Assembly (NCBI GenBank): GCA_000002445.1
Contig: AE017150.2
Location: forward strand, 1,056,001 to 1,120,000
Source: Trypanosoma brucei
Lineage: Eukaryota
Length of the DNA: 64,000 nt
Direction: 5' to 3'
Shown here: piece after piece, positions 2,748 to 20,400 of the stretch
Layout: each line of letters opens with the position of its first letter
How positions within the stretch are numbered: position 1 is the first letter of the stretch
Program-made: the position numbers and the translations under genes
The notes under the pieces: generated by a model
What the model was told of the DNA's origin: nothing
Databases searched by the model: none
Seen by the model: only the letters and a program-made list of their open reading frames with translations

Positions 2748-3083
2748 ATGTCTGGTGAGGAACCCACTAAATTGCAGCGAACAGAGTCTGGTGCGAGGGT
2801 GATCAAAACCAAAGAATTTCTTCGTACCAGCGTCGCCGAGGGCCCTTTCTGTCTCCTCGACAGTGCTGTGAAGAATGGAACACGCGTGTTCATCCAGTCC
2901 CGCTACAACAAGTCCCTCGTCGCAACCGTCGTTGCCTTCGACAAACACTTTAACCTCGTGTTGCGGGATGCCGTGGAGTTAACAATGGTCAACAATGAGC
3001 AGAAAGAGCGCTCCATTCGGAACATGTTCTTGCGTGGCGCCTCTGTGGTGTTCATCGTGAGGTTGCCGCAGAGCACTGTATAG
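2748..3083 (+). CDS. Small nuclear ribonucleoprotein Sm-D2.
   Basis: The Sm fold aligns strongly to eukaryotic SmD2. [43 protein letters not shown] matches [59 protein letters not shown] matches RYISKMFLRGDSVIVV. The start is set at the internal ATG at 2748 (MSGEEPTK). The ORF-track start at 2697 lies in a pyrimidine tract. Confidence 0.75.
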   Translation: [111 protein letters not shown]

Positions 3084-3595: not shown

Positions 3596-6500
3596 ATGGT
3601 TGCCACGGAACAATCAAGAAGAGGACAAGATCCGTGTGGAGATGTAACCGACATACGAAAACCCTCCTCAATAGAGGCAGCGGAGCCTTCAGACTATTCG
3701 TCAAGCTCAGGCAATAGAGGTGAGGGCGGACGCGAATCTCGGGGTATTTGGGCATTCAAACGTGCATCATTAGTTTCGGTACCACAAACTCCCAAAACAC
3801 ATCAAGCTAGCTGGTCAACGAGCAATAGAGAAGGAAGAGGAGGAGGAAACAGACATCGTGTGTCATGGCACCAACATCTCGATCCCCATCCTAACACAGG
3901 AGCTTCGGTAGATGATGGAGCAACTTTCTGGAAAGTTCCTCGTAAAGTTTCTGAGGATCCTGAAGATAATATGTCGACTACACACTCAATTTCCACGAGT
4001 GTATCGGATCCAGTCTCCCCATCAGCAGCAAATGTGGTAGTCAAGTCTGCGACCGCCGAAAATATTTGTGTTGGAGCTTCAACCGACGGGGAAATGAAAG
4101 CAATGCCTCACAGTATGCTGCTTGATGGGGAAGTGTGGGAGTACATATATCTTAGAAAATCGTCAGAACTGCGGGATGCCTTTGCTTCTGATATTGGCGA
4201 TGTGTTAGGTTTTCCTTTTTCGACACCCATTGAGTTTACACCCACAAGAACTGGAATATTAGCGCACTGCACATTACTGTATCCTGAGACCATGAAAACT
4301 GAAGAGCTATACGAGAGGTTATCGCGAGACAAATTTCCCGCGATGAGAAGACTATATCAAACAGCAAAACGAGAGCACATGATAACAAGTTGCTCGACGA
4401 TGTACACCACGAACATTTCTGACAGGCCCATAAGTCCATCGCCGGAAGATATGGACGGACGCCGAGGCAGCATGCAAATGATGTCTTCTGCAACTAGTAC
4501 AAACCATAAACCTGAAGAATATTGTCTGTCAAAAAGGGAAGAAAGTAGAGATGCAACAAAAGAAGATGCGACGGGAATGGACACCGAATCGCAAGAAATT
4601 CATTATAGTCGTTTCACCGAACGGTCTATGAGTCGCATATCCATGGTTCCTGCTGATATCCGTGAGGCTGGTATGTCTAAGAGCCATGTTGTGACATCGC
4701 GTGCAGCCAGTCCCAGATGTGCCAAATGTCTTGATCAGTCTATGAGTCACATATCCATGGTTCCTGCTGATGTCCGTGAGGCTGGTATGTCTAAGAGCCA
4801 TGTTGAGCCATCGCGTGCAGCCAGTCCCAGATGTGCCAAATGTCTTGATCAGTCTATGAGTCGTATATCCATGGTTCCTGCTGATATCCGTGAGGCTGGT
4901 ATGTCTAAGAGCCATGTTGTGACATCGCGTGCAGCCAGTCCCAGATGTGCCAAATGTCTTGATCAGTCTATGAGTCACATATCCATGGTTCCTGCTGATA
5001 TCCGTGAGGCTGGTATGTCTAAGAGTGAGGTTGAACCATCTTTAGCAGCCAGTCTGAAATGTGGCAAATGTCTTGATCAGTCTATGAGTCGCATATCCAC
5101 ATTGCCTGCTGATATCCGTGAGGCTGGTATGTCTAAGAGCCATGTTGTGACATCGCGTGCAGCCAGTCCCAGATGTGCCAAATGTCTTGATCAGTCTATG
5201 AGTCGCCCATCCACATTGCCTGCTGATATCCGTGAGGCTGGTATGTCTAAGAGCCATGTTGTGACATCGCGTGCAGCCAGTCCCAGATGTGCCAAATGTC
5301 TTGATCAGTCTATGAGTCGCCAATCGACATTGCCTGCTGATATCCGTGAGGCTGGTATGTCTAAGAGTGAGGTTGAGCCATCTTTAGCAGCCAGTCTGAA
5401 ATGTGGCAAATGTCTTGATCAGTCTATGAGTCGCATATCTATGATGCCTGCTGATGTCCGTGAGGCTGGTATGTCTAAGAGTGAGGTTGAGCCATCTTTA
5501 GCAGCCAGTCTGAAATGTGGCAAGTGTCTTGGTCAGTCTATGAGTCGCATATCTATGATGCCTGCTGATGTCCGTGAGGCTGGTATGTCTAAGAGCCATG
5601 TTGTGACATCGCGTGCAGCCAGTCCCAGATGTGCCAAATGTCTTGATCAGTCTATGAGTCGCATATCTATGATGCCTGCTGATGTCCGTGAGGCTGGTAT
5701 GTCTAAGAGCCATGTTGTGACATCGCGTGCAGCCAGTCCCAGATGTGCCAAATGTCTTGATCAGTCTATGAGTCGCATATCTATGATGCCTGCTGGTGTC
5801 CGTGAGGCTGGTATGTCTAAGAGCCATGTTGTGACATCGCGTGCAGCCAGTCCCAGATGTGCCAAATGTCTTGATCAGTCTATGAGTCGCATATCTATGA
5901 TGCCTGCTGATGTCCGTGAGGCTGGTATGTCTAAGAGCCATGTTGTGACATCGCGTGCAGCCAGTCCCAGATGTGCCAAATGTCTTGATCAGTCTATGAG
6001 TCGCATATCTATGATGCCTGCTGATGTCCGTGAGGCTGGTATGTCTAAGAGCCATGTTGTGACATCGCGTGCAGCCAGTCCCAGATGTGCCAAATGTCTT
6101 GATCAGTCTATGAGTCACATATCCATGGTTCCTGCTGATGTCCGTGAGGCTGGTATGTCTAAGAGCCATGTTGTGACATCGCGTGCAGCCAGTCCCAGAT
6201 GTGCCAAATGTCTTGATCAGTCTATGAGTCACATATCCATGGTTCCTGCTGATGTCCGTGAGGCTGGTATGTCTAAGAGCCATGTTGTGACATCGCGTGC
6301 AGCCAGTCCCAGATGTGCCAAATGTCTTGATCAGTCTATGAGTCGCATATCTATGATGCCTGCTGATGTCCGTGAGGCTGGTATGTCTAAGAGCCATGTT
6401 GTGACATCGCGTGCAGCCAGTCCCAGATGTGCCAAATGTCTTGATCAGTCTATGAGTCGCTCATCCACATTGCCTGCTGATGTCCGTGAGGCTGGTATGT

Positions 6501-7324
6501 CTAAGAGCCATGTAGTGACATCGCGTGCAGCCAGTCCCAGATGTGCCAAATGTCTTGATCAGTCTATGAGTCGCATATCTATGATGCCTGCTGATGTCCG
6601 TGAGGCTGGTATGTCTAAGAGCCATGTTGTGACATCGCGTGCAGCCAGTCCCAGATGTGCCAAATGTCTTGATCAGTCTATGAGTCGCATATCCACATTG
6701 CCTGCTGATATCCGTGAGGCTGGTATGTCTAAGAGCCATGTTGTGACATCGCGTGCAGCCAGTCCCAGATGTGCCAAATGTCTTGATCAGTCTATGAGTC
6801 ACATATCCATGGTTCCTGCTGATGTCCGTGAGGCTGGTATGTCTAAGAGTGAGGTTGAACCATCTTTAGCAGCCAGTCTGAGATGTGCCAAATGTCTTGA
6901 TCAGTCTATGAGTCGCATATCCACATTGCCTGCTGATATCCGTGAGGCTGGTATGTCTAAGAGCCATGTTGTGACATCGCGTGCAGCCAGTCCCAGATGT
7001 GCCAAATGTCTTGATCAGTCTATGAGTCGCATATCTATGATGCCTGCTGATGTCCGTGAGGCTGGTATGTCTAAGAGCCATGTTGTGACATCGCGTGCAG
7101 CCAGTCCCAGATGTGCCAAATGTCTTGATCAGTCTATGAGTCGCATATCCACATTGCCTGCTGATATCCGTGAGGCTGGTATGTCTAAGAGCCATGTTGT
7201 GACATCGCGTGCAGCCAGTCCCAGATGTGCCAAATGTCTTGATCAGTCTATGAGTCACATATCCATGGTTCCTGCTGATGTCCGTGAGGCTGGTATGTCT
7301 AAGAGTGAGGTTGAGCCATCGTGA
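3596..7324 (+). CDS. Giant tandem-repeat protein, part 1. A unique N-terminus is followed by a 255-aa conserved domain and then about 30 copies of a 38-aa repeat. The frame is terminated by an in-frame TGA inside a repeat.
   Basis: The 1242-aa ORF carries a 114-nt repeat (consensus SMSRISMMPADVREAGMSKSHVVTSRAASPRCAKCLDQ) from 4621 onward. The stop at 7322-7324 interrupts an otherwise perfect repeat. The same frame reopens at 7364. Confidence 0.6.
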   Translation: MVATEQSRRGQDPCGDVTDIRKPSSIEAAEPSDYSSSSGNRGEGGRESRGIWAFKRASLVSVPQTPKTHQASWSTSNREGRGGGNRHRVSWHQHLDPHPNTGASVDDGATFWKVPRKVSEDPEDNMSTTHSISTSVSDPVSPSAANVVVKSATAENICVGASTDGEMKAMPHSMLLDGEVWEYIYLRKSSELRDAFASDIGDVLGFPFSTPIEFTPTRTGILAHCTLLYPETMKTEELYERLSRDKFPAMRRLYQTAKREHMITSCSTMYTTNISDRPISPSPEDMDGRRGSMQMMSSATSTNHKPEEYCLSKREESRDATKEDATGMDTESQEIHYSRFTERSMSRISMVPADIREAGMSKSHVVTSRAASPRCAKCLDQSMSHISMVPADVREAGMSKSHVEPSRAASPRCAKCLDQSMSRISMVPADIREAGMSKSHVVTSRAASPRCAKCLDQSMSHISMVPADIREAGMSKSEVEPSLAASLKCGKCLDQSMSRISTLPADIREAGMSKSHVVTSRAASPRCAKCLDQSMSRPSTLPADIREAGMSKSHVVTSRAASPRCAKCLDQSMSRQSTLPADIREAGMSKSEVEPSLAASLKCGKCLDQSMSRISMMPADVREAGMSKSEVEPSLAASLKCGKCLGQSMSRISMMPADVREAGMSKSHVVTSRAASPRCAKCLDQSMSRISMMPADVREAGMSKSHVVTSRAASPRCAKCLDQSMSRISMMPAGVREAGMSKSHVVTSRAASPRCAKCLDQSMSRISMMPADVREAGMSKSHVVTSRAASPRCAKCLDQSMSRISMMPADVREAGMSKSHVVTSRAASPRCAKCLDQSMSHISMVPADVREAGMSKSHVVTSRAASPRCAKCLDQSMSHISMVPADVREAGMSKSHVVTSRAASPRCAKCLDQSMSRISMMPADVREAGMSKSHVVTSRAASPRCAKCLDQSMSRSSTLPADVREAGMSKSHVVTSRAASPRCAKCLDQSMSRISMMPADVREAGMSKSHVVTSRAASPRCAKCLDQSMSRISTLPADIREAGMSKSHVVTSRAASPRCAKCLDQSMSHISMVPADVREAGMSKSEVEPSLAASLRCAKCLDQSMSRISTLPADIREAGMSKSHVVTSRAASPRCAKCLDQSMSRISMMPADVREAGMSKSHVVTSRAASPRCAKCLDQSMSRISTLPADIREAGMSKSHVVTSRAASPRCAKCLDQSMSHISMVPADVREAGMSKSEVEPS
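3856..4620 (+). repeat. Copy 1 of a 765-nt (255-aa) non-repetitive domain, from (R)VSWHQHLD...DGATFWKVPRKVSEDPEDNMST to SRFTER. It precedes repeat array 1.
   Basis: Near-identical to 8141-8905, with only scattered substitutions (for example SATAEN versus YSGAEN). Confidence 0.85.
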
Positions 7325-8052
7325 GCAGCCAGTCTGAGATGTGCCAAATGTCTTGATCAGTCTATGAGTCGCATATCCACATTGCCTGCTGATATCCGTG
7401 AGGCTGGTATGTCTAAGAGCCATGTTGTGACATCGCGTGCAGCCAGTCCCAGATGTGCCAAATGTCTTGATCAGTCTATGAGTCGCATATCTATGATGCC
7501 TGCTGATGTCCGTGAGGCTGGTATGTCTAAGAGCCATGTTGTGACATCGCGTGCAGCCAGTCCCAGATGTGCCAAATGTCTTGATCAGTCTATGAGTCGC
7601 ATATCCACATTGCCTGCTGATATCCGTGAGGCTGGTATGTCTAAGAGCCATGTTGTGACATCGCGTGCAGCCAGTCCCAGATGTGCCAAATGTCTTGATC
7701 AGTCTATGAGTCACATATCCATGGTTCCTGCTGATGTCCGTGAGGCTGGTATGTCTAAGAGCCATGTTGTGACATCGCGTGCAGCCAGTCCCAGATGTGC
7801 CAAATGTCTTGATCAGTCTATGAGTCGCTCATCGACATTGCCTGCTGATGTCCGTGAGGCTGGTATGTCTAAGAGTGAGGTTGAACCATCTTTAGCAGCC
7901 AGTCTGAGATGTGCCAAATGTCTTGATCAGTCTATGAGTCGCTCATCGACATTGCCTGATGATGTCCGTGAGGCTGGTATGTCTAAGAGTGAGGTTGAAC
8001 CATCTTTAGCAGCCAGTTCCAGATGTGCCAAATGTCTTGATCAGTCTATGAG
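4621..8052 (+). repeat. Coding tandem array 1. It has about 30 units of 114 nt (38 aa). H-type units (SKSHVVTSRAASPRCAKC) predominate, with interspersed E-type units (SKSEVEPSLAASLKCGKC).
   Basis: The period was measured directly. tctatgagtcgc recurs at 4625 and 4739, 114 nt apart, and the register holds for about 3.4 kb. Confidence 0.9.
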
Positions 8053-11000
8053 TGTTGGGTCTGATTTTGTTTCTGTTTTGTTAGTTGGTGGTGTAAATGA
8101 AGTTGGCAACGACCGCTCTGGTTTCCAAAGGAAACGGTACCCCGTGTCGTGGCACAAACATTGTGATGGTCCTTCGCCGTTGCGATCTTTGTGTGATGAT
8201 GGGGCAACTTTCTGGAAAGTTCCTCGTAAAGTTTCTGAGGATCCTGAAGATAATATGTCGACTGCACACTCAATTTCCACGAGTGTATCGGATCCAGTCT
8301 CCCCATCAGCAGTAAATGTGGTGGTAAAGTACAGTGGAGCCGAAAATATTTGTGTTGGAGCTTCAACCGACGGGGAAATGAAAGCAATGCCTCACACCAT
8401 GCTGCTTGATGGGGAAGTGTGGGAGTACATATATCTTAGAAAATCGTCAGAACTGCGGGATGCCTTTGCTTCTGATATTGGCGATGTGTTAGGTTTTCCT
8501 TTTTCGACACCCATTGAGTTTACACCCACAAGAACTGGAATATTAGCGCACTGTACATTACTGTATCCTGAGACCATGAAAACTGAAGAGCTATACGAGA
8601 GGTTATCGCGAGACAAATTTCCCGCGATGAGAAGACTATATCAAACAGCAAAACGAGAGCAGATGATAACAAGTTGCTCGACGATGTACACCACGAACAT
8701 TTGTGACAGGCCCATAAGTCCACCGCCGGAAGATATGGACGGACGCCGAGGCAGCATGCAAATGATGTCTTCTGCAACTAGTACAAACCATAAACCTGAA
8801 GAATATTGTCTGTCAAAAAGGGAAGAAAGAAGAGATGCAACTAAAGAAGATGCGACGGGAATGGACACCGAATCGCAAGAAATTCATTATAGTCGTTTCA
8901 CCGAACGGTCTATGAGTCGCATATCCATGGTTCCTGCTGATGTCCGTGAGGCTGGTATGTCTAAGAGTGAGGTTGAACCATCTTTAGCAGCCAGTCTGAG
9001 ATGTGCCAAATGTCTTGATCAGTCTATGAGTCACATATCTATGATGCCTGCTGATGTCCGTGAGGCTGGTATGTCTAAGAGTGAGGTTGAGCCATCTTTA
9101 GCAGCCAGTCTGAGATGTGCCAAATGTCTTGATCAGTCTATGAGTCGCATATCTATGATGCCTGCTGATGTCCGTGAGGCTGGTATGTCTCAGAGCCAAA
9201 TTGGAACATTACCCGCAACTATTCCCGTTTATTGCCCACAATTGCTTGAGCGCTGTATGAGCTGTGCTTCTACTATACTTGCTGATGTCCGTGAGGCTGG
9301 TATGTCTCAGAGCCAGATTGGAACATTACCCGCAAGTATTCCCGTTTATTGCCCACAATTGCTTGAGCGCTGTATGAGCTGTGCTTCTACTATACTTGCT
9401 GATGTCCGTGAGGCTGGTATGTCTCAGAGCCAGATTGGAACATTACCCGCAACTATTCCCGTTTATTGCCCACAATTGCTTGAGCGCTGTATGAGCTGTG
9501 CTTCTACTATACTTGCTGATGTCCGTGAGGCTGGTATGTCTCAGAGCCAGATTGGAACATTACCCGCAACTATTCCCGTTTATTGCCCACAATTGCTTGA
9601 GCGCTGTATGAGCTGTGCTTCTACTATACTTGCTGATGTCCGTGAGGCTGGTATGTCTAAGAGTGAGGTTGAACCATCTTTAGCAGCCAGTCCCAGATGT
9701 GCCAAATGTCTTGATCAGTCTATGAGTCGCATATCTATGATGCCTGCTGATGTCCGTGAGGCTGGTATGTCTAAGAGTGAGGTTGAACCATCTTTAGCAG
9801 CCAGTCTGAGATGTGGCAAATGTCTTGATCAGTCTATGAGTCGCATATCTATGATGCCTGCTGATATCCGTGAGGCTGGTATGTCTAAGAGTGAGGTTGA
9901 ACCATCTTTAGCAGCCAGTCTGAAATATGGCAAATGTCTTGATCAGTCTATGAGTCGCATATCTATGATGCCTGCTGATGTCCGTGAGGCTGGTATGTCT
10001 AAGAGTGAGGTTGAACCATCTTTAGCAGCCAGTCTGAGATGTGGCAAATGTCTTGATCAGTCTATGAGTCGCATATCTATGATGCCTGCTGATATCCGTG
10101 AGGCTGGTATGTCTAAGAGTGAGGTTGAACCATCTTTAGCAGCCAGTCTGAGATGTGGCAAATGTCTTGATCAGTCTATGAGTCGCATATCTATGATGCC
10201 TGCTGATGTCCGTGAGGCTGGTATGTCTAAGAGTGAGGTTGAACCATCTTTAGCAGCCAGTCTGAGATGTGGCAAATGTCTTGATCAGTCTATGAGTCGC
10301 ATATCTATGATGCCTGCTGATGTCCGTGAGGCTGGTATGTCTAAGAGTGAGGTTGAACCATCTTTAGCAGCCAGTCTGAGATGTGCCAAATGTCTTGATC
10401 AGTCTATGAGTCGCATATCTATGATGCCTGCTGATATCCGTGAGGCTGGTATGTCTAAGAGTGAGGTTGAACCATCTTTAGCAGCCAGTCTGAAATATGG
10501 CAAATGTCTTGATCAGTCTATGAGTCGCATATCTATGATGCCTGCTGATGTCCGTGAGGCTGGTATGTCTAAGAGTGAGGTTGAACCATCTTTAGCAGCC
10601 AGTCTGAGATGTGCCAAATGTCTTGATCAGTCTATGAGTCGCATATCTATGATGCCTGCTGATATCCGTGAGGCTGGTATGTCTAAGAGTGAGGTTGAAC
10701 CATCTTTAGCAGCCAGTCTGAAATATGGCAAATGTCTTGATCAGTCTATGAGTCGCATATCTATGATGCCTGCTGATATCCGTGAGGCTGGTATGTCTAG
10801 GAGTGAGGTTGAACCATCTTTAGCAGCCAGTCTGAAATATGGCAAATGTCTTGATCAGTCTATGAGTCGCATATCTATGATGCCTGCTGATGTCCGTGAG
10901 GCTGGTATGTCTAAGAGTGAGGTTGAACCATCTTTAGCAGCCAGTCTGAAATATGGCAAATGTCTTGATCAGTCTATGAGTCGCATATCTATGATGCCTG

Positions 11001-13342
11001 CTGATATCCGTGAGGCTGGTATGTCTAGGAGTGAGGTTGAACCATCTTTAGCAGCCAGTCTGAAATGTGGCAAATGTCTTGATCAGTCTATGAGTCGCAT
11101 ATCTATGATGCCTGCTGATGTCCGTGAGGCTGGTATGTCTAAGAGTGAGGTTGAACCATCTTTAGCAGCCAGTCTGAAATATGGCAAATGTCTTGATCAG
11201 TCTATGAGTCGCATATCTATGATGCCTGCTGATATCCGTGAGGCTGGTATGTCTAGGAGTGAGGTTGAACCATCTTTAGCAGCCAGTCTGAAATGTGGCA
11301 AATGTCTTGATCAGTCTATGAGTCGCATATCTATGATGCCTGCTGATGTCCGTGAGGCTGGTATGTCTAAGAGTGAGGTTGAACCATCTTTAGCAGCCAG
11401 TCTGAAATATGGCAAATGTCTTGATCAGTCTATGAGTCGCATATCTATGATGCCTGCTGATGTCCGTGAGGCTGGTATGTCTAAGAGTGAGGTTGAACCA
11501 TCTTTAGCAGCCAGTCTGAAATGTGGCAAATGTCTTGATCAGTCTATGAGTCGCATATCCATGATGCCTGCTGATGTCCGTGAGGCTGGTATGTCTAAGA
11601 GTGAGGTTGAACCATCTTTAGCAGCCAGTCTGAAATATGGCAAATGTCTTGATCAGTCTATGAGTCGCATATCTATGATGCCTGCTGATGTCCGTGAGGC
11701 TGGTATGTGTAAAAGGGGTGAAGCGGAGTCACTTGTTGTTAGTTCAAATAGCCGTGAGGTTAATGGTGGTGTTAAGAATTTATCCAGTGGTAATTCTTCT
11801 GCATCGTTGGACGGTAGGAAGTTTGTTTGTTCGTCGGGCAAAAGTGGTGATTATTCCGCTTCTTTCGGTGACGGTGGTTGTTGTCAAATCGTCGGTGGTG
11901 CTGAAGCGGGTGGTGTTGTTGTCTTAGAGGAATTTCGAGACATACCGAGTGGTGCTGGTTCGAATTTACCGGTACCTGTTGATGAAGTTCCTGGCGGTGG
12001 TGTGAGAATGTCGTCCGATGTTGATAAAAGCGTTTCCGGTGGCTTGTTAGAAGTATTAAAGAATTGTTCGTCTTCCAGGGGAGGTGAAAGTTTTCCGTTA
12101 GTTGCAGTTCAAGCGCTGGCGAGTCGCCAGTCTGAAAATCGCCAACCGGTGCGATGCTCTTTCAATTCTGTTGCTGAAGGCAGGTACTACGACTCGGGTC
12201 TTTTGGATGAGCGTAACGATTGGTGCGTTCCTCCCCGTGGTGTGATGCAGGGTGCAGTTGGCAGCGCACTGTGTCTTGTAAGGGGCGTTGGCGCGGTTAA
12301 TTTTGATGGATCGCCGGACATAAGCGTCACTTCTGTGGCTTCTTCTGTTGGTGATAAAGTGCCTTCGATGATTAGAGGTGAACAACGCAGGGCGAGCACC
12401 AACAGTGCTTTGCCAGATGTCGTGCCGAAAGTTGCTGACCCACCTCTTGAAGCTCCGGTTTCTTTAATTGAGGGTGAAAAAGTGTCTGTGGCCTGGGAGT
12501 CACAATTTGGGGGTAGTGCAGATCCAAAGGAGCGTTTTCTGGATCTCTCTACAACACCTCAGCATGAAAATCCGTCTCGGTTTCTCTCAAGAATGGGTAG
12601 CCTCTGTCGTTGGGGCCTCGGGTCGCAGAAGGCAAAATGTGAGGACAGCGCGGAGACGCTGAAGCGATGGGCGCAGGATAGTACCAAATATCTTATAGGA
12701 GTTCAGGAACCGGACACCGTTGCGGAGGAGTTGCCGTCCCTATCAGATGCCCGCGGAATGCCACCAATGGTGAAAGCTAGTAGCTCGTCGGATAAAAATT
12801 TCTCGCAACTTGGTCCTTTTGACACAAGCAATGGGGACCATAAGGGAGAGGAACTGACCACTTTAAGGAGGTGGTCAAAGAGTAATCAAGGGAAGAGTAT
12901 TGCCGGCAGTGGTACGGAGGAACCACGTAGCATAGCAACAAGGAATTCAGATCCAAATCTGCCTCTGTTGCGGATTCGCAAAAGTGCCAGTGGTTCGCCA
13001 CTGCTTCCGCTGGCTACGGGTGACAAAGGCCTTGCAAAGTGGGAAGATGATGGCGTCACTTCGTTACCCCCCATTATATCTCAGAGCGCAAACACTCCGC
13101 TTGGGTGCGATGCCGCTTCAAAACGGAGAGTAGGTGACAGTTACGTTTGGGATATACGCGATGTGAGCATGTCGTCGGCTTCCCCTAACACCTCTTATCT
13201 GGACATTGAGGCTGAGGGTGAAGCGTTCGATATATTCAAACGCCTCTTGCACGATATTGATGTTGCAAGTCGAGCCATCTCTAAGCCTGTACAAGCGCTT
13301 AGAGAGCTGCGTGACGGGAGGAAGTATGAAAATTCCTCGTGA
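7364..13342 (+). CDS. Giant tandem-repeat protein, part 2, in the same frame as part 1. It holds the rest of repeat array 1, a second copy of the 255-aa domain, repeat array 2 (38-aa and 39-aa units), and a unique Ser/Gly/Val-rich 545-aa C-terminus.
   Basis: The 1992-aa ORF continues the repeat phase across the stop. Whether translation restarts at Met 7364 or the locus is a single disrupted or mis-assembled gene cannot be decided from sequence alone. Confidence 0.55.
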   Translation: MSRISTLPADIREAGMSKSHVVTSRAASPRCAKCLDQSMSRISMMPADVREAGMSKSHVVTSRAASPRCAKCLDQSMSRISTLPADIREAGMSKSHVVTSRAASPRCAKCLDQSMSHISMVPADVREAGMSKSHVVTSRAASPRCAKCLDQSMSRSSTLPADVREAGMSKSEVEPSLAASLRCAKCLDQSMSRSSTLPDDVREAGMSKSEVEPSLAASSRCAKCLDQSMSVGSDFVSVLLVGGVNEVGNDRSGFQRKRYPVSWHKHCDGPSPLRSLCDDGATFWKVPRKVSEDPEDNMSTAHSISTSVSDPVSPSAVNVVVKYSGAENICVGASTDGEMKAMPHTMLLDGEVWEYIYLRKSSELRDAFASDIGDVLGFPFSTPIEFTPTRTGILAHCTLLYPETMKTEELYERLSRDKFPAMRRLYQTAKREQMITSCSTMYTTNICDRPISPPPEDMDGRRGSMQMMSSATSTNHKPEEYCLSKREERRDATKEDATGMDTESQEIHYSRFTERSMSRISMVPADVREAGMSKSEVEPSLAASLRCAKCLDQSMSHISMMPADVREAGMSKSEVEPSLAASLRCAKCLDQSMSRISMMPADVREAGMSQSQIGTLPATIPVYCPQLLERCMSCASTILADVREAGMSQSQIGTLPASIPVYCPQLLERCMSCASTILADVREAGMSQSQIGTLPATIPVYCPQLLERCMSCASTILADVREAGMSQSQIGTLPATIPVYCPQLLERCMSCASTILADVREAGMSKSEVEPSLAASPRCAKCLDQSMSRISMMPADVREAGMSKSEVEPSLAASLRCGKCLDQSMSRISMMPADIREAGMSKSEVEPSLAASLKYGKCLDQSMSRISMMPADVREAGMSKSEVEPSLAASLRCGKCLDQSMSRISMMPADIREAGMSKSEVEPSLAASLRCGKCLDQSMSRISMMPADVREAGMSKSEVEPSLAASLRCGKCLDQSMSRISMMPADVREAGMSKSEVEPSLAASLRCAKCLDQSMSRISMMPADIREAGMSKSEVEPSLAASLKYGKCLDQSMSRISMMPADVREAGMSKSEVEPSLAASLRCAKCLDQSMSRISMMPADIREAGMSKSEVEPSLAASLKYGKCLDQSMSRISMMPADIREAGMSRSEVEPSLAASLKYGKCLDQSMSRISMMPADVREAGMSKSEVEPSLAASLKYGKCLDQSMSRISMMPADIREAGMSRSEVEPSLAASLKCGKCLDQSMSRISMMPADVREAGMSKSEVEPSLAASLKYGKCLDQSMSRISMMPADIREAGMSRSEVEPSLAASLKCGKCLDQSMSRISMMPADVREAGMSKSEVEPSLAASLKYGKCLDQSMSRISMMPADVREAGMSKSEVEPSLAASLKCGKCLDQSMSRISMMPADVREAGMSKSEVEPSLAASLKYGKCLDQSMSRISMMPADVREAGMCKRGEAESLVVSSNSREVNGGVKNLSSGNSSASLDGRKFVCSSGKSGDYSASFGDGGCCQIVGGAEAGGVVVLEEFRDIPSGAGSNLPVPVDEVPGGGVRMSSDVDKSVSGGLLEVLKNCSSSRGGESFPLVAVQALASRQSENRQPVRCSFNSVAEGRYYDSGLLDERNDWCVPPRGVMQGAVGSALCLVRGVGAVNFDGSPDISVTSVASSVGDKVPSMIRGEQRRASTNSALPDVVPKVADPPLEAPVSLIEGEKVSVAWESQFGGSADPKERFLDLSTTPQHENPSRFLSRMGSLCRWGLGSQKAKCEDSAETLKRWAQDSTKYLIGVQEPDTVAEELPSLSDARGMPPMVKASSSSDKNFSQLGPFDTSNGDHKGEELTTLRRWSKSNQGKSIAGSGTEEPRSIATRNSDPNLPLLRIRKSASGSPLLPLATGDKGLAKWEDDGVTSLPPIISQSANTPLGCDAASKRRVGDSYVWDIRDVSMSSASPNTSYLDIEAEGEAFDIFKRLLHDIDVASRAISKPVQALRELRDGRKYENSS
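8141..8905 (+). repeat. Copy 2 of the 255-aa domain, embedded in-frame between repeat arrays 1 and 2.
   Basis: Aligns to 3856-4620. It is entered from array 1 through a short unique linker (SVGSDFVSVLLVGGVNEVGNDRSGFQRKRYP) with no intergenic sequence. Confidence 0.85.
8906..11705 (+). repeat. Coding tandem array 2. It has about 20 units of 114 nt (mostly E-type, with LKYGKC or LRCGKC variants) plus four units of 117 nt.
   Basis: The same repeat family as array 1. It is bounded by the second copy of the 255-aa domain upstream and the unique C-terminal domain downstream. Confidence 0.9.
9182..9650 (+). repeat. Sub-array of four near-identical 117-nt (39-aa) variant repeats, SQSQIGTLPATIPVYCPQLLERCMSCASTILADVREAGM.
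   Basis: ggtatgtctcag recurs at 9182 and 9299, 117 nt apart. The four copies are almost identical, which suggests recent amplification. Confidence 0.85.
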
Positions 13343-15703
13343 TGATTGTGTTGTTATTGTTGTGTTAAAGTTGTCTCTTTTTGTTCTTCTCTTTTTGTCT
13401 GTTTTACTAAACTGATTTCTGTTGTGTCGGTTGTTTTTGCCGACCAGGTTAGGTGACATATAGAAGTGCAAATATTCATCTGGTTGTGTGTCTTTTTCCT
13501 TGTTTTTCTCCTATATTCTGATACAAACAAGCATATGTACCCTCATTTCTCTTGTCTCCCCCTCGTTGTTTTACGTTTATTTGGTGTATATTTCTGTTTG
13601 TATATGCATGTACTCGGGGTGAGACATTGATGCTTCTTTAATTTGCGCTGGCTGTAGTTTCCTACTTTGTTTCCACTTTGCTGTGAGGTTTTTGTTTTGT
13701 TTTTTGTTTTATGTTTTTTCTGAATTATCTTGTCAGGTGTTTATTCACTCTGCCTCATTCCATTACGTTTCTGCGTTTTCCCTAGCCCCTGTTTTGCGGT
13801 TCCATTCCCCTTGTTCTTGTTCTTGTGATTTTGCTCTCGGTTTCTTTATTGAGTTGCAGCGTGTATTTGGATACATATGTATGTTCTCATATGTTTACGC
13901 CATAAGACCCCGCATGCACATATTTTTTTCTGTGAAAGTACACAAGTTAATGCATGCGTACCCGCGGAGGTGATGCATTATTATACCCACCTCAACTTTG
14001 TTTTACTTTTTTACTTTTTTTCTTTTGTCTTTTTGTTACGGTGTTCCCATAATTATGATCATATTTCCCATATTTCCTTTTGTTTTTTTTCAAATTCTTC
14101 CCACCACGATTTTACTGTTTTAGGCGACTTTTTTGTGTTTCGGTGGTTAAATGCCGTTTCATTTTCGCTTGACAGCTCTCTTCTTTTTCTTTTTTTTTTT
14201 AGTGAAAAAAAAATAATTCTTTAATTTGTTTAAAAAACAACACAACACAACACAGAATCACCAAATGAGATAAAACTATTAGATAATACGGGTGGCAGCG
14301 GCAAGTTGTGTCCGTGTGTGTCTGTTTGTGGTTGCGAAGGACTCACCGCAATTTTTTTTTTATTTTGATGAGATCAAAAGAAAAAAAAAGAAAAGAAAGG
14401 TACCATATATTTTTATTTCAAGAGATTTAACTTTTCCCAAACCAAGCTGGTTGCTTGTTGCTTTTCTTTTCTTTTCTTTTTTTTACCCCTTTGTTTTTGT
14501 TCCCTCTGACTCTCTCTCTCTCTTTCTCTCTCTCTGTTTATTTGCTTTTTATTTCGTTTGTTTCAACTGATTGGGTTAACAAAAAATGGGGTAGATAAAA
14601 GTATAAAAAGATTGAGCGGAATGATTTCATGTGAGTGAGTGTTATGAATGAACATATCGAGGTGAGGATGAACAACAGCAACAAAAAGAGAAAAAAAAAT
14701 GTACAAGAGAGAGAAGAAAGCAAACAAATATAAAAAAAAAGGGAATTTATGTACCATCCCATACGTAGAGGAGGAGGAGGAGGTTGTGTTAAATTGAAGT
14801 GAGATAGTATGAGTTTAAAGAAACAAAATCATAATCTTGATGATGGTAACAAAAATTGTACATGACCGTTGCGACGAAAGTACAGGTAAAAATGAAGTGA
14901 AGCGAGAGGGGTGGAAAGGAAGGGAAAAGAATCAAACAGCTCGTTCCTACACACATGTTAAATGTTTATATAAATTAATGTGTGTACATATGTGTATAAG
15001 TAGGATACGGATGTAGTTACGCCATAAATTCTGACGCGAGGGAAGGCGCAGAGGAGTGGCGTAATAGGAAAGTAAATTTAATCGGGGTAACAACTGCAGC
15101 CCCCCCCCCCCAAAAAAAAAGAAATATAATGATGCATACACAGGTGTCTGCATTTGTATGCAACTGAGGATGTGTATAACTTTTTTTCTTTTTTTTCTTT
15201 TTCTCTTGTGCGTGCTAGCTTTTTCACTTTTTATTTTGTCCTTGTCCTTCTTCTATTTTACGTTTTCTCTCGCAATTAATCTGCGCCACGACAGCAGAGT
15301 CTCCTTTTTTTTTGTTTTCGTCCACTCACTGTAGGAAACCATTTTGTCTCCCGACCCTCTCTACTCCTTTCCCGTGATACGAAATGGCTAAACATGCGCG
15401 TACATGAGAGCGCGGTAAATGAAGTGTAAAAAAAAAAAGGGAATCGGGAGAGGTACACGCCATGAGTTGTGTGTTAGCAATATGAGGAGCGTACGACTTA
15501 TTTCAGCGAGTGATTGTAGTTTGTGGAAGTGAAACTGACATTACTGTGGAGTGCAGTTACTCGGGATAATCCGTCACTCACCCACTCACTAAATTTATTA
15601 TTATTATTATTGTTATGATTAACGTGTTGTTTGGTACTTTTGTTTTTGTTCCTATTTCAGTCATCTGCATCTATTTCCCCTCTTTTTAAAAAAAAAATTT
15701 ATC

Positions 15704-17164
15704 TTGATTCCCTCTTTTGTTAGTGCCGTGTCCAGTACATCGTTGCAGAAGAACGTAAAAAGGGAGCGGCGCGACGGTGCTTTTGCATCAGTCGGTACGT
15801 TTTACATGTGGCGGATCACGCGGCTCTGCTGCAAACAACTCATACGGGATGAATCTTTAGTTTCCCTTCCACCCGCTGTGCACCGATTGGAAGTTTACCG
15901 AAACGCCGTAAGTGTTGACTGCGAGGAGCGCATCTGCGCGGAGTTGGGCCTTCTGCTGCAACGTGAGGGACACACCGCCTTTGCTGAGGGCTCCACTCCG
16001 CAGCAGAAGATTGTGAAGCACACATATTTGGAACTGCATGGTGCTCATAAGGACTTTACGGAGGTGAAGAGTTTCCAACGGAAGGAGACGCGGAGACTCC
16101 CTGGTTTATTATGGTCCCCCACTCTTGTGTCATGGATGAATGAAGTGGTGCCACGGGTACGTGTGTTTCCAGTGGGTGTAATGCCAGACACGGCAAGGGT
16201 TGTGGAACATAATATGACAGGATATGAAATGCATATGGAGCACCCCACCGTTGGTTGTTCTTTTCTTTACTTATCGTTGCTATCTGATACGGTCCTCACG
16301 TTCGACGATGAGGCTACGGGGCGCTATGGTGAAGTGTTTCTCCCCCAACGTGCGTTAATGTGCTGCTCCGGCGAGATTCGTTGGGGCTGGCGCTTCGGCG
16401 AGCAGTCTCGTGAGGTGCACACATTTGTTAATGCTTCTGGCGTTCGACGGGTTGTGGAGCCGGATCTGCGGCTGAGTGTGCAGTTGTGGAAGTTTACACC
16501 ACAATTGCTGGATGCGCGGCTGCTGCAGGATCGTGTTGAGGAGTCAATGAAGCAAAGGGAGGCTGAGGAGTCAAATGAAGTAGTCGAAACCATTGCTGTG
16601 GACCGTAAGAAGAATGAAGAGGAGCATAAGGGCTCTGCCTCCTCCCATGCATTGTTTAGCGCCCTAGCGGAAAAAGGTGCCTCCGGGACAGGGCCTCTCG
16701 GTGGTGAGTATGTGGAGGGGAGAACGCAGGCCTGCAAGGGTGTGGAAGGAAAGAGCATGACGATGGAAGATATTGGTCGGGACTACAACACCTACAAGCA
16801 ACAGTTTCAAAACGTTCACGGTGTGCTACAAGAGATGAAGGCACTGCAGGATGCGGGTCAACCCATCAATGACATGTGGCTGAGGAAGCGTATACTTGAT
16901 GGTCAGAAGGATGACAATCATGACGCGCAGGACGGTTTCGATCCAAACGATGTGGAGGGAACGTGGGATCGTGTGGATGCAAAGGCACGGTTCTACAAGG
17001 CACGCCTGAAGGGTATGGACTACGATGGCACCGCCAACAGCAACAGCTCGATGCCGGATGTGACAGAAGACGCTCCTCTTGATATGAAGAAGACAATTCA
17101 GAAGATCGCCCCACTCGTAAAGGACGGCGATAAGATCCTTGCGAGCCTGCCGTGTGGTCAATGA
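15704..17164 (+). CDS. Hypothetical protein. The true start is possibly the Met at 15806.
   Basis: 486-aa + strand ORF. Its first ATG sits inside a pyrimidine tract. I recognise no domain. Confidence 0.45.
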   Translation: MIPSFVSAVSSTSLQKNVKRERRDGAFASVGTFYMWRITRLCCKQLIRDESLVSLPPAVHRLEVYRNAVSVDCEERICAELGLLLQREGHTAFAEGSTPQQKIVKHTYLELHGAHKDFTEVKSFQRKETRRLPGLLWSPTLVSWMNEVVPRVRVFPVGVMPDTARVVEHNMTGYEMHMEHPTVGCSFLYLSLLSDTVLTFDDEATGRYGEVFLPQRALMCCSGEIRWGWRFGEQSREVHTFVNASGVRRVVEPDLRLSVQLWKFTPQLLDARLLQDRVEESMKQREAEESNEVVETIAVDRKKNEEEHKGSASSHALFSALAEKGASGTGPLGGEYVEGRTQACKGVEGKSMTMEDIGRDYNTYKQQFQNVHGVLQEMKALQDAGQPINDMWLRKRILDGQKDDNHDAQDGFDPNDVEGTWDRVDAKARFYKARLKGMDYDGTANSNSSMPDVTEDAPLDMKKTIQKIAPLVKDGDKILASLPCGQ

Positions 17165-17496
17165 TTTGGTCGTAAGGCTGGTGTTCGGTTTCCCTGTTGC
17201 TCCGGAAGGTAATTATCCGCGGAGGAACATGAAGAATGCAGAAAGCGATTCGTAAGTATTTATGTGTGTGCTGGTGCGCAAGAGAAGTACTCAACATGTT
17301 AGTGGAAGGCAAATGCCAAAGGAATAAACGACCACTACGGGGCGGGCGAAGTCACTGACCATCGTCATTGGAGGCACGTGTACATTTGTGGGGATGCTTT
17401 ACGGGGGGAAATATCTGCCGTTGAAGTTTCATATAGCTTTGGTATCCCTTACTGGGGTGAAGGTGAGTTCGTTGCAATCCGTGCTATCAAGAGTTT

Positions 17497-20400
17497 ATGT
17501 CCTTATCAACACTCCTCTACAAAGCAGAAGTTAGGCAAGGTTTAGTTAGTCGCAACGCTGGCGTCTGGCTGAATATGTGTTGGTGCACTACGCAAGAAGT
17601 GGCCGAGGTGCTAAGCATCAGTAGACTCCGCGGTGATGTGTCTGAGTCCGCGCGGAAAACAGCGGACGAACGGTTCATGCAGTTGCACAACGGTTCTATG
17701 AACATAGGCGATATTTTGACTGAGGTTGCCGTGAATCGGGGTGTGTGTGGCGGTGCCCCTTCCGACAGTCTGCAGCTTGCGGCTGCGCTTGCACTTGAGC
17801 CGCTAGTAACCAAAGGCCGATGGTGCGAGGGTAATGGTTTCAACGACAAGGTGCGTGTGCTGGATATGTTGTTGGGTTTTTTGAGTGATGAGGCAGTCAT
17901 GAGCAGTGGTAATGCTACACACACAGGTCGGGTGCGCGTTTCTCTTTGTCTTTGCCTGTGCCAAATCATTACGTTTGAGAGTCCTACACCGTACTGGAAC
18001 GGGGTTTTGTCTGATTGCCTTGCGTCCATCGTTTCAGATTGGTCCGGCAGTCAATATGAGATGATAGACAATGATAGCGAACACATTTTCAAGTCATTTC
18101 GTCATATTGTTGTACTCCAGCTATCGGAGTTGTGTGCATCCAATACTGCGCTGTGGTGGTATATGGTGTCTACACTGTCGCGTTGTCTTGTGGAGGGATC
18201 GTCCTCTTTTCCGGTTGGGGATGTGCGGAGGCACTTCAGCTTTTCTGTAGTCTTGCGACTCATGCGGCGGCGGCCGCGGGTGAGTGATACACACGAGGGG
18301 ATGAGACCGGCAGATTCTTTTATTTTTGGCCCTGCATTTCGGCAGCTCATTGATGGCAGTCTTCAGCAGGCTGTGGCGCTCGCAGGGAGCGACAGGTGGA
18401 GCCATGTAGCTGTGCAACAAGAGTGCCGATTACTGCTAGATATTTCATCCCATTTGATAAGCAACGCCGAGTTTGCAGCTCAACTGTTTCGGTGTAGTGT
18501 CGATCTGCTTGTACTTGCAGAACCTACAGCATATGACACTATTGCTGCAAGTACTTTGGTCGCAGCAGTGGCAGCTCGAGTGGATAGCGCCCTTGAGTGT
18601 ATGTCTGGGGTGTTGCAAGCATTTCCTGAGGTGTCGTTGCGGTTCGACGCAGGGGAGGTAACATCTAAACTCCTCAACTGTATGGCGGGCGCTGCTGCAG
18701 CGGCACGGGGTGATGAATGTGATGATGACGATGATAAGGAAGCAGAGTTGCTTGGAATGCTGCGTGAGGACTACGTTGTGCCGTTGGGTTGCGCGGGGGG
18801 CGATACGACGTCAACTGCCGGTGCCGTGCTTGAGTTGTTGGTAGAGGCAAATCCCCAGCAACTTTCTACTATCGTGGACGCGCTTTGTAATTGTTGTTCT
18901 TCCGCGGAGGGTTTGTTGTCGTTGTTAAGGTCCGCTCACTGGCGGGCCTGGGCTGCGGCCTTGCGGTGCTGTTGTCGTGTGTGTGAGGAAGGGGAAACAT
19001 CACTCATTGACCGGATGCCGCACGTTGAGGATAAACTAATGTTGCCACTTGCGCAGCTTTTGCACGAGAGCACAGAATCTATGGTGTCGGTGGAGCTTAT
19101 TGACTTGCTTTCTCTGTGTCTCGTACGGACGACTCAGGGAGCACTTGGATGTTCATTTCTGGCGCTCCTCGATGGTGTTTTCCATCATTGCAACAGCGTG
19201 TTTGGTTTAGCGACCGGTGGAACAGGTATTGCAGCGCGCGGAGGCGGGTCAAGTCAGGTTGCACTGCTTTCCGTATCTGTCTACGCTGTGCACCGGCTTT
19301 TATCGCGATGTGGTGAGTCTGTTACCTCAACACTTGTTGCGGCATGCGACGTGCAATTGTGGTTAGAGCGCTCACTTTCTGTACTTGCAAGTGGTGGGTT
19401 GCTTGCCGTTTACTGCGGGGCGTACGCTGTCAAAACGCTTCTGTCATTCGCCCCGCGAACGGCTTCCCACTACCCCGCGTTGGCCGCAGCGGCTGTTGAT
19501 AGCGCATGCAGACACTGTGGTATACCGGACGCATCGTCCCTTTTTGCCGGCTTGCTCACTTGTTTGTGTGATCACAAGGAAGGCGAATGCGCTCTCGCAG
19601 GCGAATTGCTGTCGGTTGTGGCTCACCATTGCCAACTCGCGACTCCTCACCGGTCCGTGCTTTTGCGAAGTACCTCCGATTATGTGCTTCGCGCCTCGAA
19701 GCTTTGCCTTGAGGAAAAGAGTCGATTGCAGGATGGAGTGGAAAGTAACACATGCCAGCAATGCAAGGTGCTCCAGCTTGTGCGGTGCTTTCCCTTAATA
19801 ACTCATTTTACCGTTAGTGACGCTCCTCACGATGAGGCAACGACGAGGCTTCTCTCAAGTTGTTTCGCCGCCTCATCTTCTGTTTTGTTTGTGCTTGATG
19901 CCATCGATGACGACGTGTTGGCGGACATGGGCTCTTCTCTTATTGCACTGTTTCATGCCTCCACTGGTGCAAACCGTAGTTGTACGACGTTGTCTACCGT
20001 ATGTACCGCCATGAGTGTGGTAGGACTCGTTAACCCATCATTTTTCAATGATGGCGCTGTGTTATCTGCTGTGTTGACTCTTTTTAAAAAGGAGGTTGAG
20101 GTTGCCCCAAGAAAAGGGATGGATTACATTGGCTGTTGCTTGCCGGTAGCCCTTTCTTGCGTGCGCCACCCCCAGCAACTCAGTGTTATTGCAGGAGGTG
20201 ACTTAACACCTGCAGCTGCCCGTGGTGTGCCTGTCGCTTCAGCTTGGTTAGTAATGTTTGGAGTGTGGAGTTCTATTTCCCCCTTCGCAGATCACTTCAC
20301 GTCGTTGTATTTTCTTGCGGCATGGCACCGACTTCTACTTTATGCCGTATCGGTTCGGGCAAGCGATGCCAATAGGCTTGATATGCTTGCTACCAGTGCG

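What the first reader, a model, noticed from the sequence alone, without database searches (positions are those of the whole stretch)
3856..8905. The 255-aa N-terminal domain is duplicated in-frame in the middle of the repeat protein, as if two tandem gene copies were fused without intergenic DNA
Segments 3856-4620 and 8141-8905 are near-identical (DGATFWKVPRKVSEDPEDNMST...LLDGEVWEYIYLRKSSELRDAFASDIGDVLGFPFSTPIEFTPTRTGILAHCTLLYPETMKTEELYERLSRDKFPAMRRLYQTAKRE...SRFTER). Each is followed directly by a repeat array.

The layout is domain, array 1, domain, array 2, then a unique C-terminus. Trypanosome tandem gene duplicates normally keep their intergenic processing signals, and here there are none: array 1 runs through a 30-aa linker straight into domain copy 2.

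That suggests either a genuine two-module architecture or a recombination event that deleted the 3' end of copy 1 and the intergenic region. Together with the in-frame stop, it may mark a locus in the middle of rearrangement.
Basis: seen in the sequence. Interest (0 to 1): 0.6.

Follow-up and report, generated by a model that had tools for sequence, protein, structure and literature searches.

The report
Internally duplicated flagellar-tip repeat protein gene
The duplicated domain is real: it is a fixed, in-frame internal duplication (domain plus 38-residue repeat array, twice) inside one already known Trypanosoma brucei flagellum-tip protein gene, not a locus caught in mid-rearrangement.

Summary
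The window is T. brucei TREU927 chromosome 2. The region is Tb927.2.5860 plus Tb927.2.5870, which published work already treats as one gene (Tb427_020030800, 2788 aa, flagellum distal tip).

The duplication is real. Segments 3860-4624 and 8144-8908 (offset 4284 nt) match at 721/765 nt. From 3914 onward they match at 690/711 nt. Each copy holds a Pfam FAZ1_cons domain and is followed by a 114-nt (38-aa) array. A 90-nt in-frame linker, with no polypyrimidine tract, joins array 1 to copy 2.

The same layout, with the same linker, is seen complete in T. b. gambiense DAL972 and T. b. equiperdum IVM-t1 (long-read), and in part in T. equiperdum OVI. It is therefore neither an assembly artefact nor a recent event.

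The 54-nt edge of the copies is heavily diverged (dS about 0.76) while the core is nearly identical (dS about 0.056). Three strain-specific changes are shared by both copies. Together these indicate an old duplication whose core is homogenised by gene conversion.

T. cruzi (long-read Brazil A4) has one domain, one array and one C-terminus at the syntenic locus, so the two-module state is derived.

The TGA at 7322 is found only in TREU927 and conflicts with tagging data. Ordinary biology, modest interest.

The parts
3596..3859 (+). Single-copy N-terminal region (88 aa) of the gene. The start codon is that of Tb927.2.5860.
   Evidence: It occurs once in the window. The ORF 3596-7324 is 1242 aa, which matches the published length of Tb927.2.5860.
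3860..4624 (+). Domain copy 1 (255 aa). It has a diverged edge at 3860-3913 and a near-identical core at 3914-4624.
   Evidence: Block-by-block identity at offset 4284. Edge dS is 0.76 against core dS of 0.056.
4109..4363 (+). Pfam FAZ1_cons (PF23398) match in copy 1 (aa 172-256). Predicted compact alpha/beta domain.
4625..8053 (+). Array 1: 30 units of 114 nt (38 aa), made of 23 type A (..SHVVTSRAASPRC..) and 7 type B (..SEVEPSLAASL..) units. It contains a 456-nt higher-order repeat.
   Evidence: TRF reports period 114, 30.1 copies and 93% matches. Unit table. Segments 6791-7246 and 7247-7702 differ at 3 nt.
7322..7324 (+). In-frame TGA that splits the TREU927 annotation into Tb927.2.5860 and Tb927.2.5870.
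   Evidence: The 15-mer around it is absent from the DAL972, IVM-t1 and OVI loci. Published work calls the split wrong.
8054..8143 (+). 30-codon in-frame linker between array 1 and domain copy 2.
   Evidence: It is 97.8-98.9% identical and in the same position in DAL972, IVM-t1 and OVI. No pyrimidine run exceeds 6 nt. It has no significant similarity to the flanking intergenic DNA or to the N- or C-terminal regions.
8144..8908 (+). Domain copy 2 (255 aa).
8393..8647 (+). Pfam FAZ1_cons match in copy 2.
   Evidence: 40.7 bits against a cut-off of 27.5.
8909..11707 (+). Array 2: 24 full units and a 17-aa part unit. It has 20 type B units, four 39-aa type C units, and no type A units.
   Evidence: The same type bias is seen in DAL972 and IVM-t1.
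9137..9604 (+). Four 117-nt (39-aa) variant units inside array 2.
   Evidence: TRF reports a period of 117. Unit table. These units are also present in IVM-t1 (4 copies) and DAL972 (2 copies).
11708..13342 (+). Single-copy C-terminal region (544 aa) and the stop codon.
   Evidence: It occurs once in the window. It is homologous to the C-termini of the T. congolense fragment P0020 and of T. cruzi P0042/P0032.

Best explanation
This is one gene, Tb927.2.5860 plus Tb927.2.5870, equivalent to Tb427_020030800. [quoted passage not shown]

An ancestral single-module gene had this order: N-terminus, one FAZ1_cons domain, a 38-aa repeat array, then the C-terminus. T. cruzi still has that form. In the T. 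brucei lineage the segment 'domain + array' was duplicated in tandem and in frame.

Both junctions of the duplication lie inside coding sequence, so no intergenic or RNA-processing signals were ever included. The event is old. The outer 54 nt of the copies have diverged to about 43% and the two arrays have become different unit types.

The roughly 710-nt domain core is kept about 97% identical by gene conversion between the two copies.

The TGA at 7322 is specific to the TREU927 reference. It is most likely a consensus error, or at most one allele, in a near-perfect 456-nt higher-order repeat. It is not a sign of decay.

Shown here: the anatomy, the conservation across Trypanozoon, the single module in T. 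cruzi, and the discontinuity in divergence.

Inferred: the single-step mechanism, gene conversion as the homogenising force, and the nature of the stop.

Functionally, the two SEA-like domains probably act as two equivalent attachment points, separated by a repeat spacer whose length varies between strains. This last point is inference only.
For: Identity of the locus
- Neighbouring proteins match TREU927 chromosome 2 proteins exactly.
- Gene order and lengths match the supplementary table of PMC8445201: 5830 is 307 aa, 5850 is 111 aa, 5860 is 1242 aa, 5890 is 452 aa.

One gene, and expressed
- Lister 427 v10 has a single 2788-aa CDS.
- In TrypTag, N-tagged 5860 and C-tagged 5870 go to the flagellar tip. 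Tags placed at the artificial boundary mislocalise.
- Both halves top an APEX2 tip proteome.
- The tagged protein is used as a tip marker.

Architecture is real and fixed
- dom1, linker and dom2 (and the C-terminal region, except in OVI, whose contig ends before it) are found in the same order in DAL972, in IVM-t1 (no Ns, long-read-type errors) and in OVI.
- Array lengths differ between strains: array 1 is about 30, about 47 and about 25.6 units. The junctions do not differ.
- Array 1 is mostly type A and array 2 is type B plus C in all three strains.

Old duplication with concerted evolution
- The edge differs at 23 of 54 positions (dN 0.59, dS 0.76). The core differs at 21/711 (dN 0.023, dS 0.056).
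- The copies group by position, not by strain.
- Alignment columns 106, 306 and 714 carry strain-specific states shared by both copies. About 0.02 such sites are expected by independent mutation.

No intergenic remnant
- The linker has no pyrimidine run longer than 6 nt and no similarity to the flanking intergenic regions.

Derived state
- The syntenic T. cruzi Brazil A4 locus (no Ns) has one domain, one uninterrupted array of about 6.7 kb with 114-nt units, and one C-terminus.
- The complete T. cruzi protein P0042 (1060 aa) and T. c. marinkellei P0032 (831 aa) each have one domain.

The stop codon
- Unit 24 differs from its higher-order twin, unit 20, at 3 nt.
- TCGTGA alternates base by base between the type A state (TCGCGT) and the type B state (TCTTTA).
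- The 15-mer around the stop is absent from all other loci fetched.
Against: - I could not read the Lister 427 sequence itself. Its two-module layout is inferred from its length and from the published alignment to both TREU927 genes.
- The state in T. congolense and T. vivax is unknown, because the available contigs break in or before the arrays. The age of the duplication is therefore bounded only loosely.
- The conversion inference rests on three shared sites and on an 18-codon edge.
- The IVM-t1 and OVI copies show mosaics that could be real conversion or could be assembly error.
- The origin of the linker is unresolved. The only hint is a weak similarity to the T. congolense post-array sequence (145 of 5000 shuffles).
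- No read-level data were available to decide whether the TGA is an error or a real TREU927 allele.
Confidence: 0.85

Rival explanations
1. Two-step origin. A whole-gene tandem duplication of the usual trypanosome kind was followed by a deletion. The deletion removed the C-terminal end of copy 1, the intergenic region and the first ~80 codons of copy 2, and fused the two genes in frame.
For: The end product would be identical to what is seen. Copy 2 lacks the first 88 codons and module 1 lacks the C-terminal region. Tandem gene arrays are common in T. brucei, and the adenosine transporter genes in this same window are an example.
Against: It needs two events, the second landing in frame, where one in-frame intragenic duplication is enough. 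There is no trace of intergenic or UTR sequence in the linker. No assembly examined retains an unfused intermediate.
Confidence: 0.15
2. Recent rearrangement or decaying pseudogene. The duplication and the in-frame stop mark an unstable locus that is losing function.
For: There is a TGA at 7322 in the reference. Array lengths differ widely between strains. The domain cores are 97% identical, which looks young at first sight.
Against: The junction and linker are fixed in four Trypanozoon assemblies. The edges are about 43% diverged. The stop motif is unique to TREU927. Lister 427 has one ORF, and the full-length protein localises specifically to the flagellar tip.
Confidence: 0.04
3. Assembly artefact. 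The second domain copy was created by misjoining reads in a long, near-identical repeat.
Against: The unique linker-to-copy-2 junction, and the copy-specific edge and interior differences, recur in independent assemblies made with different technologies. One of these is a gap-free long-read assembly.
Confidence: 0.01

Closest known systems
Tb927.2.5860 / Tb927.2.5870 = Tb427_020030800 (T. brucei flagellum distal-tip protein; Cosentino et al. 2021, PMC8445201; Velez-Ramirez et al. 2021, PMC8141408; PMC9826329)
   Same: It is this locus. Neighbours, gene order and the 1242-aa length of the first ORF all match. The split at the TGA has already been published as an annotation error.
   Different: The passages of those papers that mention the two gene IDs (I did not read the papers in full) do not describe the internal domain-plus-array duplication, its conservation, the concerted evolution of the copies, or the single-module state in T. 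cruzi.
Kinetoplastid proteins with tandem FAZ1_cons (PF23398) domains: FAZ1, Gb4-like proteins, Leishmania and T. vivax multi-domain proteins
   Same: Both copies pass the Pfam threshold. In relatives, the roughly 100-aa domain typically occurs 3-16 times per protein. Domain multiplication is therefore normal for this family.
   Different: In those proteins the domains sit head to tail. Here two copies are separated by a 1143-aa repeat array, and the duplicated unit is domain plus array. The direct orthologues have one copy in every sequence available. T. cruzi and T. c. marinkellei are complete; T. theileri, T. rangeli, T. grayi, T. vivax and T. congolense are partial.
MARP-1/MARP-2, the 38-aa-repeat microtubule-associated proteins of T. 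brucei (PMC2289396)
   Same: A very large protein dominated by tandem 38-aa units.
   Different: The location differs: flagellar tip against subpellicular microtubules. From memory the repeat sequences are unrelated, but I did not test this. MARPs are on another chromosome (from my own knowledge).
SEA domains in tandem, such as MUC16
   Different: The similarity is moderate and Foldseek found nothing significant. SEA domains are extracellular, whereas this protein is cytoskeletal/flagellar. No sequence relationship was detected.

Membership tests
Pfam PF23398 FAZ1_cons | HMM score above the curated gathering threshold (27.5 bits) | tested here: met
   Copy 1 scores 39.7 bits and copy 2 scores 40.7 bits, covering profile positions 6-92 of 93.
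Tb927.2.5860/5870 (Tb427_020030800) flagellar tip protein gene | Same chromosomal position and the same first ORF | tested here: met
   Flanking proteins are exact TREU927 chromosome 2 proteins. The order 5830(307 aa)-5850(111 aa)-5860(1242 aa)-5890(452 aa) matches the window ORFs.
Tb927.2.5860/5870 (Tb427_020030800) flagellar tip protein gene | Single continuous ORF and flagellar tip localisation | not testable with these tools
   Taken from the literature only. The TREU927 sequence itself carries a TGA at 7322.
Fused tandem gene duplicates (chimeric gene retaining intergenic remnants) | Remnant of intergenic/UTR sequence or RNA-processing signals at the junction | tested here: not met
   The linker has no pyrimidine run longer than 6 nt, against 12-28 nt in real intergenic regions. 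It has no significant similarity to the upstream or downstream intergenic DNA.
Pseudogene | Disabling mutation shared by strains, or other signs of decay | tested here: not met
   There is only one stop in 3248 codons. Its 15-mer is absent from the other assemblies. The FAZ1_cons core has dN 0.005 between the copies. Lister 427 has one ORF.
MARP family | Tandem 38-aa units making up most of the protein | tested here: met
   54 units of 38-39 aa make up about 64% of the protein.
MARP family | Sequence similarity of the repeat unit to MARP-1/2 units | not tested
From memory the units are unrelated.
SEA domain | SEA fold (beta-alpha-beta-beta-alpha-beta sandwich) | tested here: inconclusive

The most novel reading that the evidence does not exclude
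The two-module form is an innovation of the T. brucei (or salivarian) lineage with a function of its own. Two SEA-like FAZ1_cons domains, kept nearly identical by gene conversion, serve as paired, equivalent docking sites. They are held apart by a repeat spacer of variable length, giving a bivalent tether or ruler at the flagellar tip. Both halves are needed for targeting, as the published mislocalisation of each half suggests. A weaker variant is that the TREU927 TGA is a real allele and the two halves can be made separately.
Probability: 0.15. Interest if true: 0.45.

Novelty: new member of a known kind. Interest (0 to 1): 0.28.

Why it matters
The main value is housekeeping.

- It confirms, from the sequence and from four other assemblies, that Tb927.2.5860 and Tb927.2.5870 should be one gene model.
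- It documents an internal architecture that annotation and short-read assemblies hide.
- It gives a clean small example of concerted evolution inside a single trypanosome gene: a diverged edge next to a homogenised core.
- It provides diagnostic junctions that can be used to check assemblies and to design tags, RNAi fragments or peptides for this widely used flagellar-tip marker. These junctions are the linker, the copy-specific edges, and the type A/B/C units.

It does not open a new kind of biology.

Tried and rejected
This was resolved by finding the true offset of 4284.
- Protein database search with the N-terminal 343 aa returned only the T. congolense fragment and no T. brucei entry. 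Exact look-ups of both window ORFs also failed. T. brucei relatives therefore had to be reached through neighbouring genes.
- The T. congolense locus could not be fetched. The only T. congolense contig obtained holds about 21 repeats plus the C-terminus and no junction.
- The T. vivax contig ends about 360 nt after the single domain.
- T. theileri has a 1265-N gap after the first repeats.
- Origin of the linker: no significant similarity to the N-terminal region, the C-terminal region or either intergenic region. One of these scripts used a wrong frame for the C-terminus and was repeated correctly. Only a weak hint to the T. congolense post-array sequence emerged.
- The IVM-t1 reading frame is unusable for judging the stop, because the assembly is full of indels.
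- The two-gene call in DAL972 is caused by a 100-N gap and not by a stop.
- Foldseek against the PDB gave nothing significant.
I did not pursue it.
- A zinc-binding role for the CxxC in the T. brucei unit was considered and dropped. In the T. congolense unit the cysteines sit at a different position in the alignment, and T. cruzi and T. theileri units have none.
Full report
**Where the window comes from**

Six of ten neighbouring ORFs are letter-for-letter identical to proteins of Trypanosoma brucei brucei TREU927 chromosome 2. Examples are XP_951728, XP_951733, HSP100/ClpB and adenosine transporter 2, all on a 1,193,948-bp record.

The supplementary table of Cosentino et al. 2021 lists the local gene order. 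It runs Tb927.2.5830 (307 aa), Tb927.2.5850 (111 aa, the LSM/Sm gene), Tb927.2.5860 (1242 aa), Tb927.2.5890 (452 aa) and Tb927.2.5900. This matches the window ORFs at 1534-2457, about 2750-3083 and 3596-7324 (1242 aa), and those that follow. The finding therefore lies in Tb927.2.5860 plus Tb927.2.5870.

**The observation**

At an offset of 4284 nt they align without gaps.

- The copies are 3860-4624 and 8144-8908.
- The first 54 nt encode VSWHxH plus a 12-residue spacer. They are recognisably homologous: 16 of the first 18 nt are identical in exact register, and T. congolense has VSWHQ at the same place. They nevertheless differ at 23 of 54 positions.
- From 3914/8198 to the end there are only 21 mismatches in 711 nt and 10 amino-acid replacements in 237.
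- The first 88 codons (3596-3859) are single copy, and there is no third copy in the window.

Copy 1 runs straight into array 1 (4625-8053, 30 units of 114 nt). Copy 2 runs into array 2 (8909-11707, 24 full units and a 17-aa part unit). The first two and a half units after each copy are still in register. Between array 1 and copy 2 lie exactly 30 in-frame codons (8054-8143). After array 2 comes a 544-aa unique C-terminus (11708-13342).

The whole frame of 3248 codons has one internal stop, a TGA at 7322-7324.

**The duplicated piece**

Both copies pass the Pfam threshold for FAZ1_cons (PF23398), with 39.7 and 40.7 bits against a cut-off of 27.5.

A profile search of 1.84 billion representative proteins found 22 relatives, all of those identified being from kinetoplastids. 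They fall into two groups.

- Direct orthologues with one copy of the domain: T. congolense, T. theileri, T. cruzi marinkellei, T. rangeli and T. grayi.
- Paralogous giant proteins in which the roughly 100-aa domain is repeated 3-16 times head to tail: Leishmania braziliensis (12 copies), T. vivax (5 copies) and a T. theileri protein named Gb4 (3 copies).

Sunter et al. 2015 noted a Pfam-B domain shared by FAZ proteins, GB4, PFC20 and FLAM8. I suspect this is the same domain, but I did not verify it.

**The arrays**

- Array 1 has 23 type A units (..SHVVTSRAASPRCAKCLDQ) and 7 type B units (..SEVEPSLAASLxCxKCLDQ).
- Array 2 has no type A units. It has 20 type B units and four 39-aa type C units at 9137-9604.
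- The same bias holds in DAL972 and IVM-t1.

The two modules are therefore distinguishable, and the distinction is older than the subspecies.

**Is the architecture real?**

I fetched the locus from other assemblies through the flanking genes. The order dom1, array, linker, dom2, array, C-terminus is found in two other assemblies, and the linker is 97.8-98.9% identical in each.

- T. b. gambiense DAL972. Its two-gene call is caused by a 100-N gap that shifts the frame.
- T. b. equiperdum IVM-t1. This assembly has no Ns, and its many indels are typical of an uncorrected long-read assembly.
- T. equiperdum OVI carries the linker-dom2 junction as well, but it is broken by a 10-N gap.

Array 1 is 3429, 5362 (gap included) and 2916 nt in the three full loci. 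Array 2 is about 2800, 2228 and 2006 nt. The arrays breathe while the junctions stay put.

In Lister 427 v10 the gene is one 2788-aa CDS. That length fits two modules with about 42 units in all, but I could not read the sequence itself. An assembly artefact is excluded.

**Age and concerted evolution**

In an alignment of all the copies, the copies group by position (c1 against c2) and not by strain. Fixed c1/c2 differences are concentrated in columns 1-60 and 121-255, plus columns 519 and 560.

- The edge has dN 0.59 and dS 0.76. The core has dN 0.023 and dS 0.056. The Pfam-matched stretch has dN 0.005.
- Protein-level constraint cannot explain a more than ten-fold drop in synonymous divergence across a boundary.
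- Orthologous copies differ by only about 1% between subspecies, so the roughly 43% divergence at the edge implies a duplication far older than the Trypanozoon radiation.
- At columns 106, 306 and 714, both copies share one state in 927/OVI and another state in DAL972/IVM-t1. About 0.02 such coincidences are expected from independent mutation.

I read this as gene conversion between the copies in short tracts. This is an inference. The IVM-t1 and OVI mosaics may be conversion or may be assembly error.

**Origin of the duplication**

- The linker has no pyrimidine run longer than 6 nt. The real intergenic regions on both sides have runs of 12-28 nt.
- The linker has no significant similarity to those intergenic regions, to the N-terminal 88 aa, or to the sequence after array 2.
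- The one hint is a weak match to the sequence that follows the T. congolense array (145 of 5000 shuffles score as high). That junction also leaves the repeat in the same phase, just after '..MS'.

This would fit a single in-frame tandem duplication. Its right breakpoint would lie a few codons past the array and its left breakpoint a few codons before VSWH. A whole-gene duplication followed by an in-frame deletion would give the same product and cannot be excluded.

**Other species**

- T. cruzi Brazil A4 is a chromosome-scale assembly with no Ns at this locus, and the locus is syntenic (Spt6-like gene and LSM gene upstream). It has an N-terminus (10001-10444), one domain (10451-10810), one uninterrupted array of 114-nt units from about 11195 to 17921 (about 59 units) and one C-terminus (17916-18947).
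- A complete T. cruzi protein of 1060 aa and the T. c. marinkellei protein of 831 aa show the same single-module order with collapsed arrays.
- T. theileri (syntenic) shows one domain before a 1265-N gap.
- The T. vivax contig ends 360 nt after its single domain.
- T. congolense is known only as an N-terminal fragment and a C-terminal fragment.

The two-module state is thus derived relative to the T. cruzi clade. Whether it predates the split from T. congolense or T. vivax is open.

**The stop codon**

Unit 24 belongs to a 456-nt higher-order repeat. Segments 6791-7246 and 7247-7702 differ at only three bases: 7315 A>G, 7321 T>G and 7323 T>G. The resulting TCGTGA takes the type A base (TCGCGT) and the type B base (TCTTTA) alternately at four consecutive diagnostic positions. 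A conversion tract cannot produce that pattern, but a consensus built over mixed reads can.

The surrounding 15-mer occurs nowhere in the other loci.

Cosentino et al. state that the TREU927 split is wrong. They cite TrypTag: N-tagged 5860 and C-tagged 5870 localise to the flagellar tip, whereas C-tagged 5860 and N-tagged 5870 are cytoplasmic. The N-terminal half alone mislocalises, yet the N-tagged protein reaches the tip. The tagged allele must therefore read through position 7322. From my own knowledge, TrypTag used a TREU927-derived line.

Whether the TGA is an error or one allele needs read-level data.

**What the protein does**

Both halves are the top hits of an adenylate-cyclase-1 APEX2 proximity proteome of the flagellar tip. 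The tagged protein is used as a distal-tip marker in bloodstream forms. No function has been assigned in the passages of the three papers that I read.

My working model is a long, largely repetitive scaffold with two equivalent SEA-like domains as attachment points. This model is inference only.

**Verdict**

The 'recent fusion or locus in mid-rearrangement' reading is not supported.

The gene and the spurious split are already published. The internal duplication, its concerted evolution and its absence from T. cruzi add detail but are a familiar kind of event. Interest is modest.

Noticed in passing
L001:12327-13418 (T. equiperdum OVI): Across a 10-N gap, the partial 'copy 1' has the copy-1 edge but a copy-2 interior. 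The 'copy 2' after the linker has the copy-2 edge but a copy-1 interior. This could be a path swap by the short-read assembler in the identical 60-nt stretch, or it could be a real reciprocal exchange.
   Followed up: partly
L004:12330-13088 (T. b. equiperdum IVM-t1): Copy 1 is a mosaic of copy-1 and copy-2 diagnostic bases and lacks 6 nt. The whole gene is riddled with frameshifts. Real conversion cannot be told apart from long-read consensus error.
   Followed up: partly
window 9137-9604: Four 117-nt (39-aa) variant units (..QSQIGTLPATIPVYCPQLLERCMSCASTIL..) sit at units 3-6 of array 2. They are conserved in IVM-t1 (4 copies) and DAL972 (2 copies). The T. congolense repeat unit is also 39 aa.
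   Followed up: partly
window 6791-7702: A 456-nt (four-unit, B-A-A-A) higher-order repeat is present twice, with only three differences. Two of those differences create the TGA.
   Followed up: yes
window 5498-6397 and 6866-7765, minus strand: Two 299-aa antisense ORFs lie inside array 1. They are a by-product of a repeat unit that lacks stops in an antisense frame and are not genes.
   Followed up: no
L008:11195-17921 (T. cruzi Brazil A4) versus P0042/P0032: The T. cruzi orthologue has about 59 repeat units in the long-read assembly but only 7-8 (P0042) or 2 (T. c. marinkellei) in older assemblies. Protein lengths in databases for this family are therefore unreliable.
   Followed up: partly
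P0028, P0032, P0042 N-termini versus window 3596-3859: The T. cruzi and T. theileri orthologues start with a CxxC...CxxC motif (MIFVCPTCGS...C..C). The T. brucei and T. congolense N-termini lack it.
   Followed up: no
window 51481-52869, 58521-59546, 61941-63335: A tandem cluster of adenosine transporter 2 (NT2-type) genes with conventional intergenic regions. It is the ordinary kind of trypanosome gene duplication, for contrast. HSP100/ClpB is at 28458-31070.
   Followed up: no
protein databases: Neither Tb927.2.5860 nor Tb927.2.5870, nor any Trypanozoon homologue, could be retrieved from the 5.8-billion-protein collection, although their neighbours are present. Highly repetitive products appear to be missing from it.
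   Followed up: no
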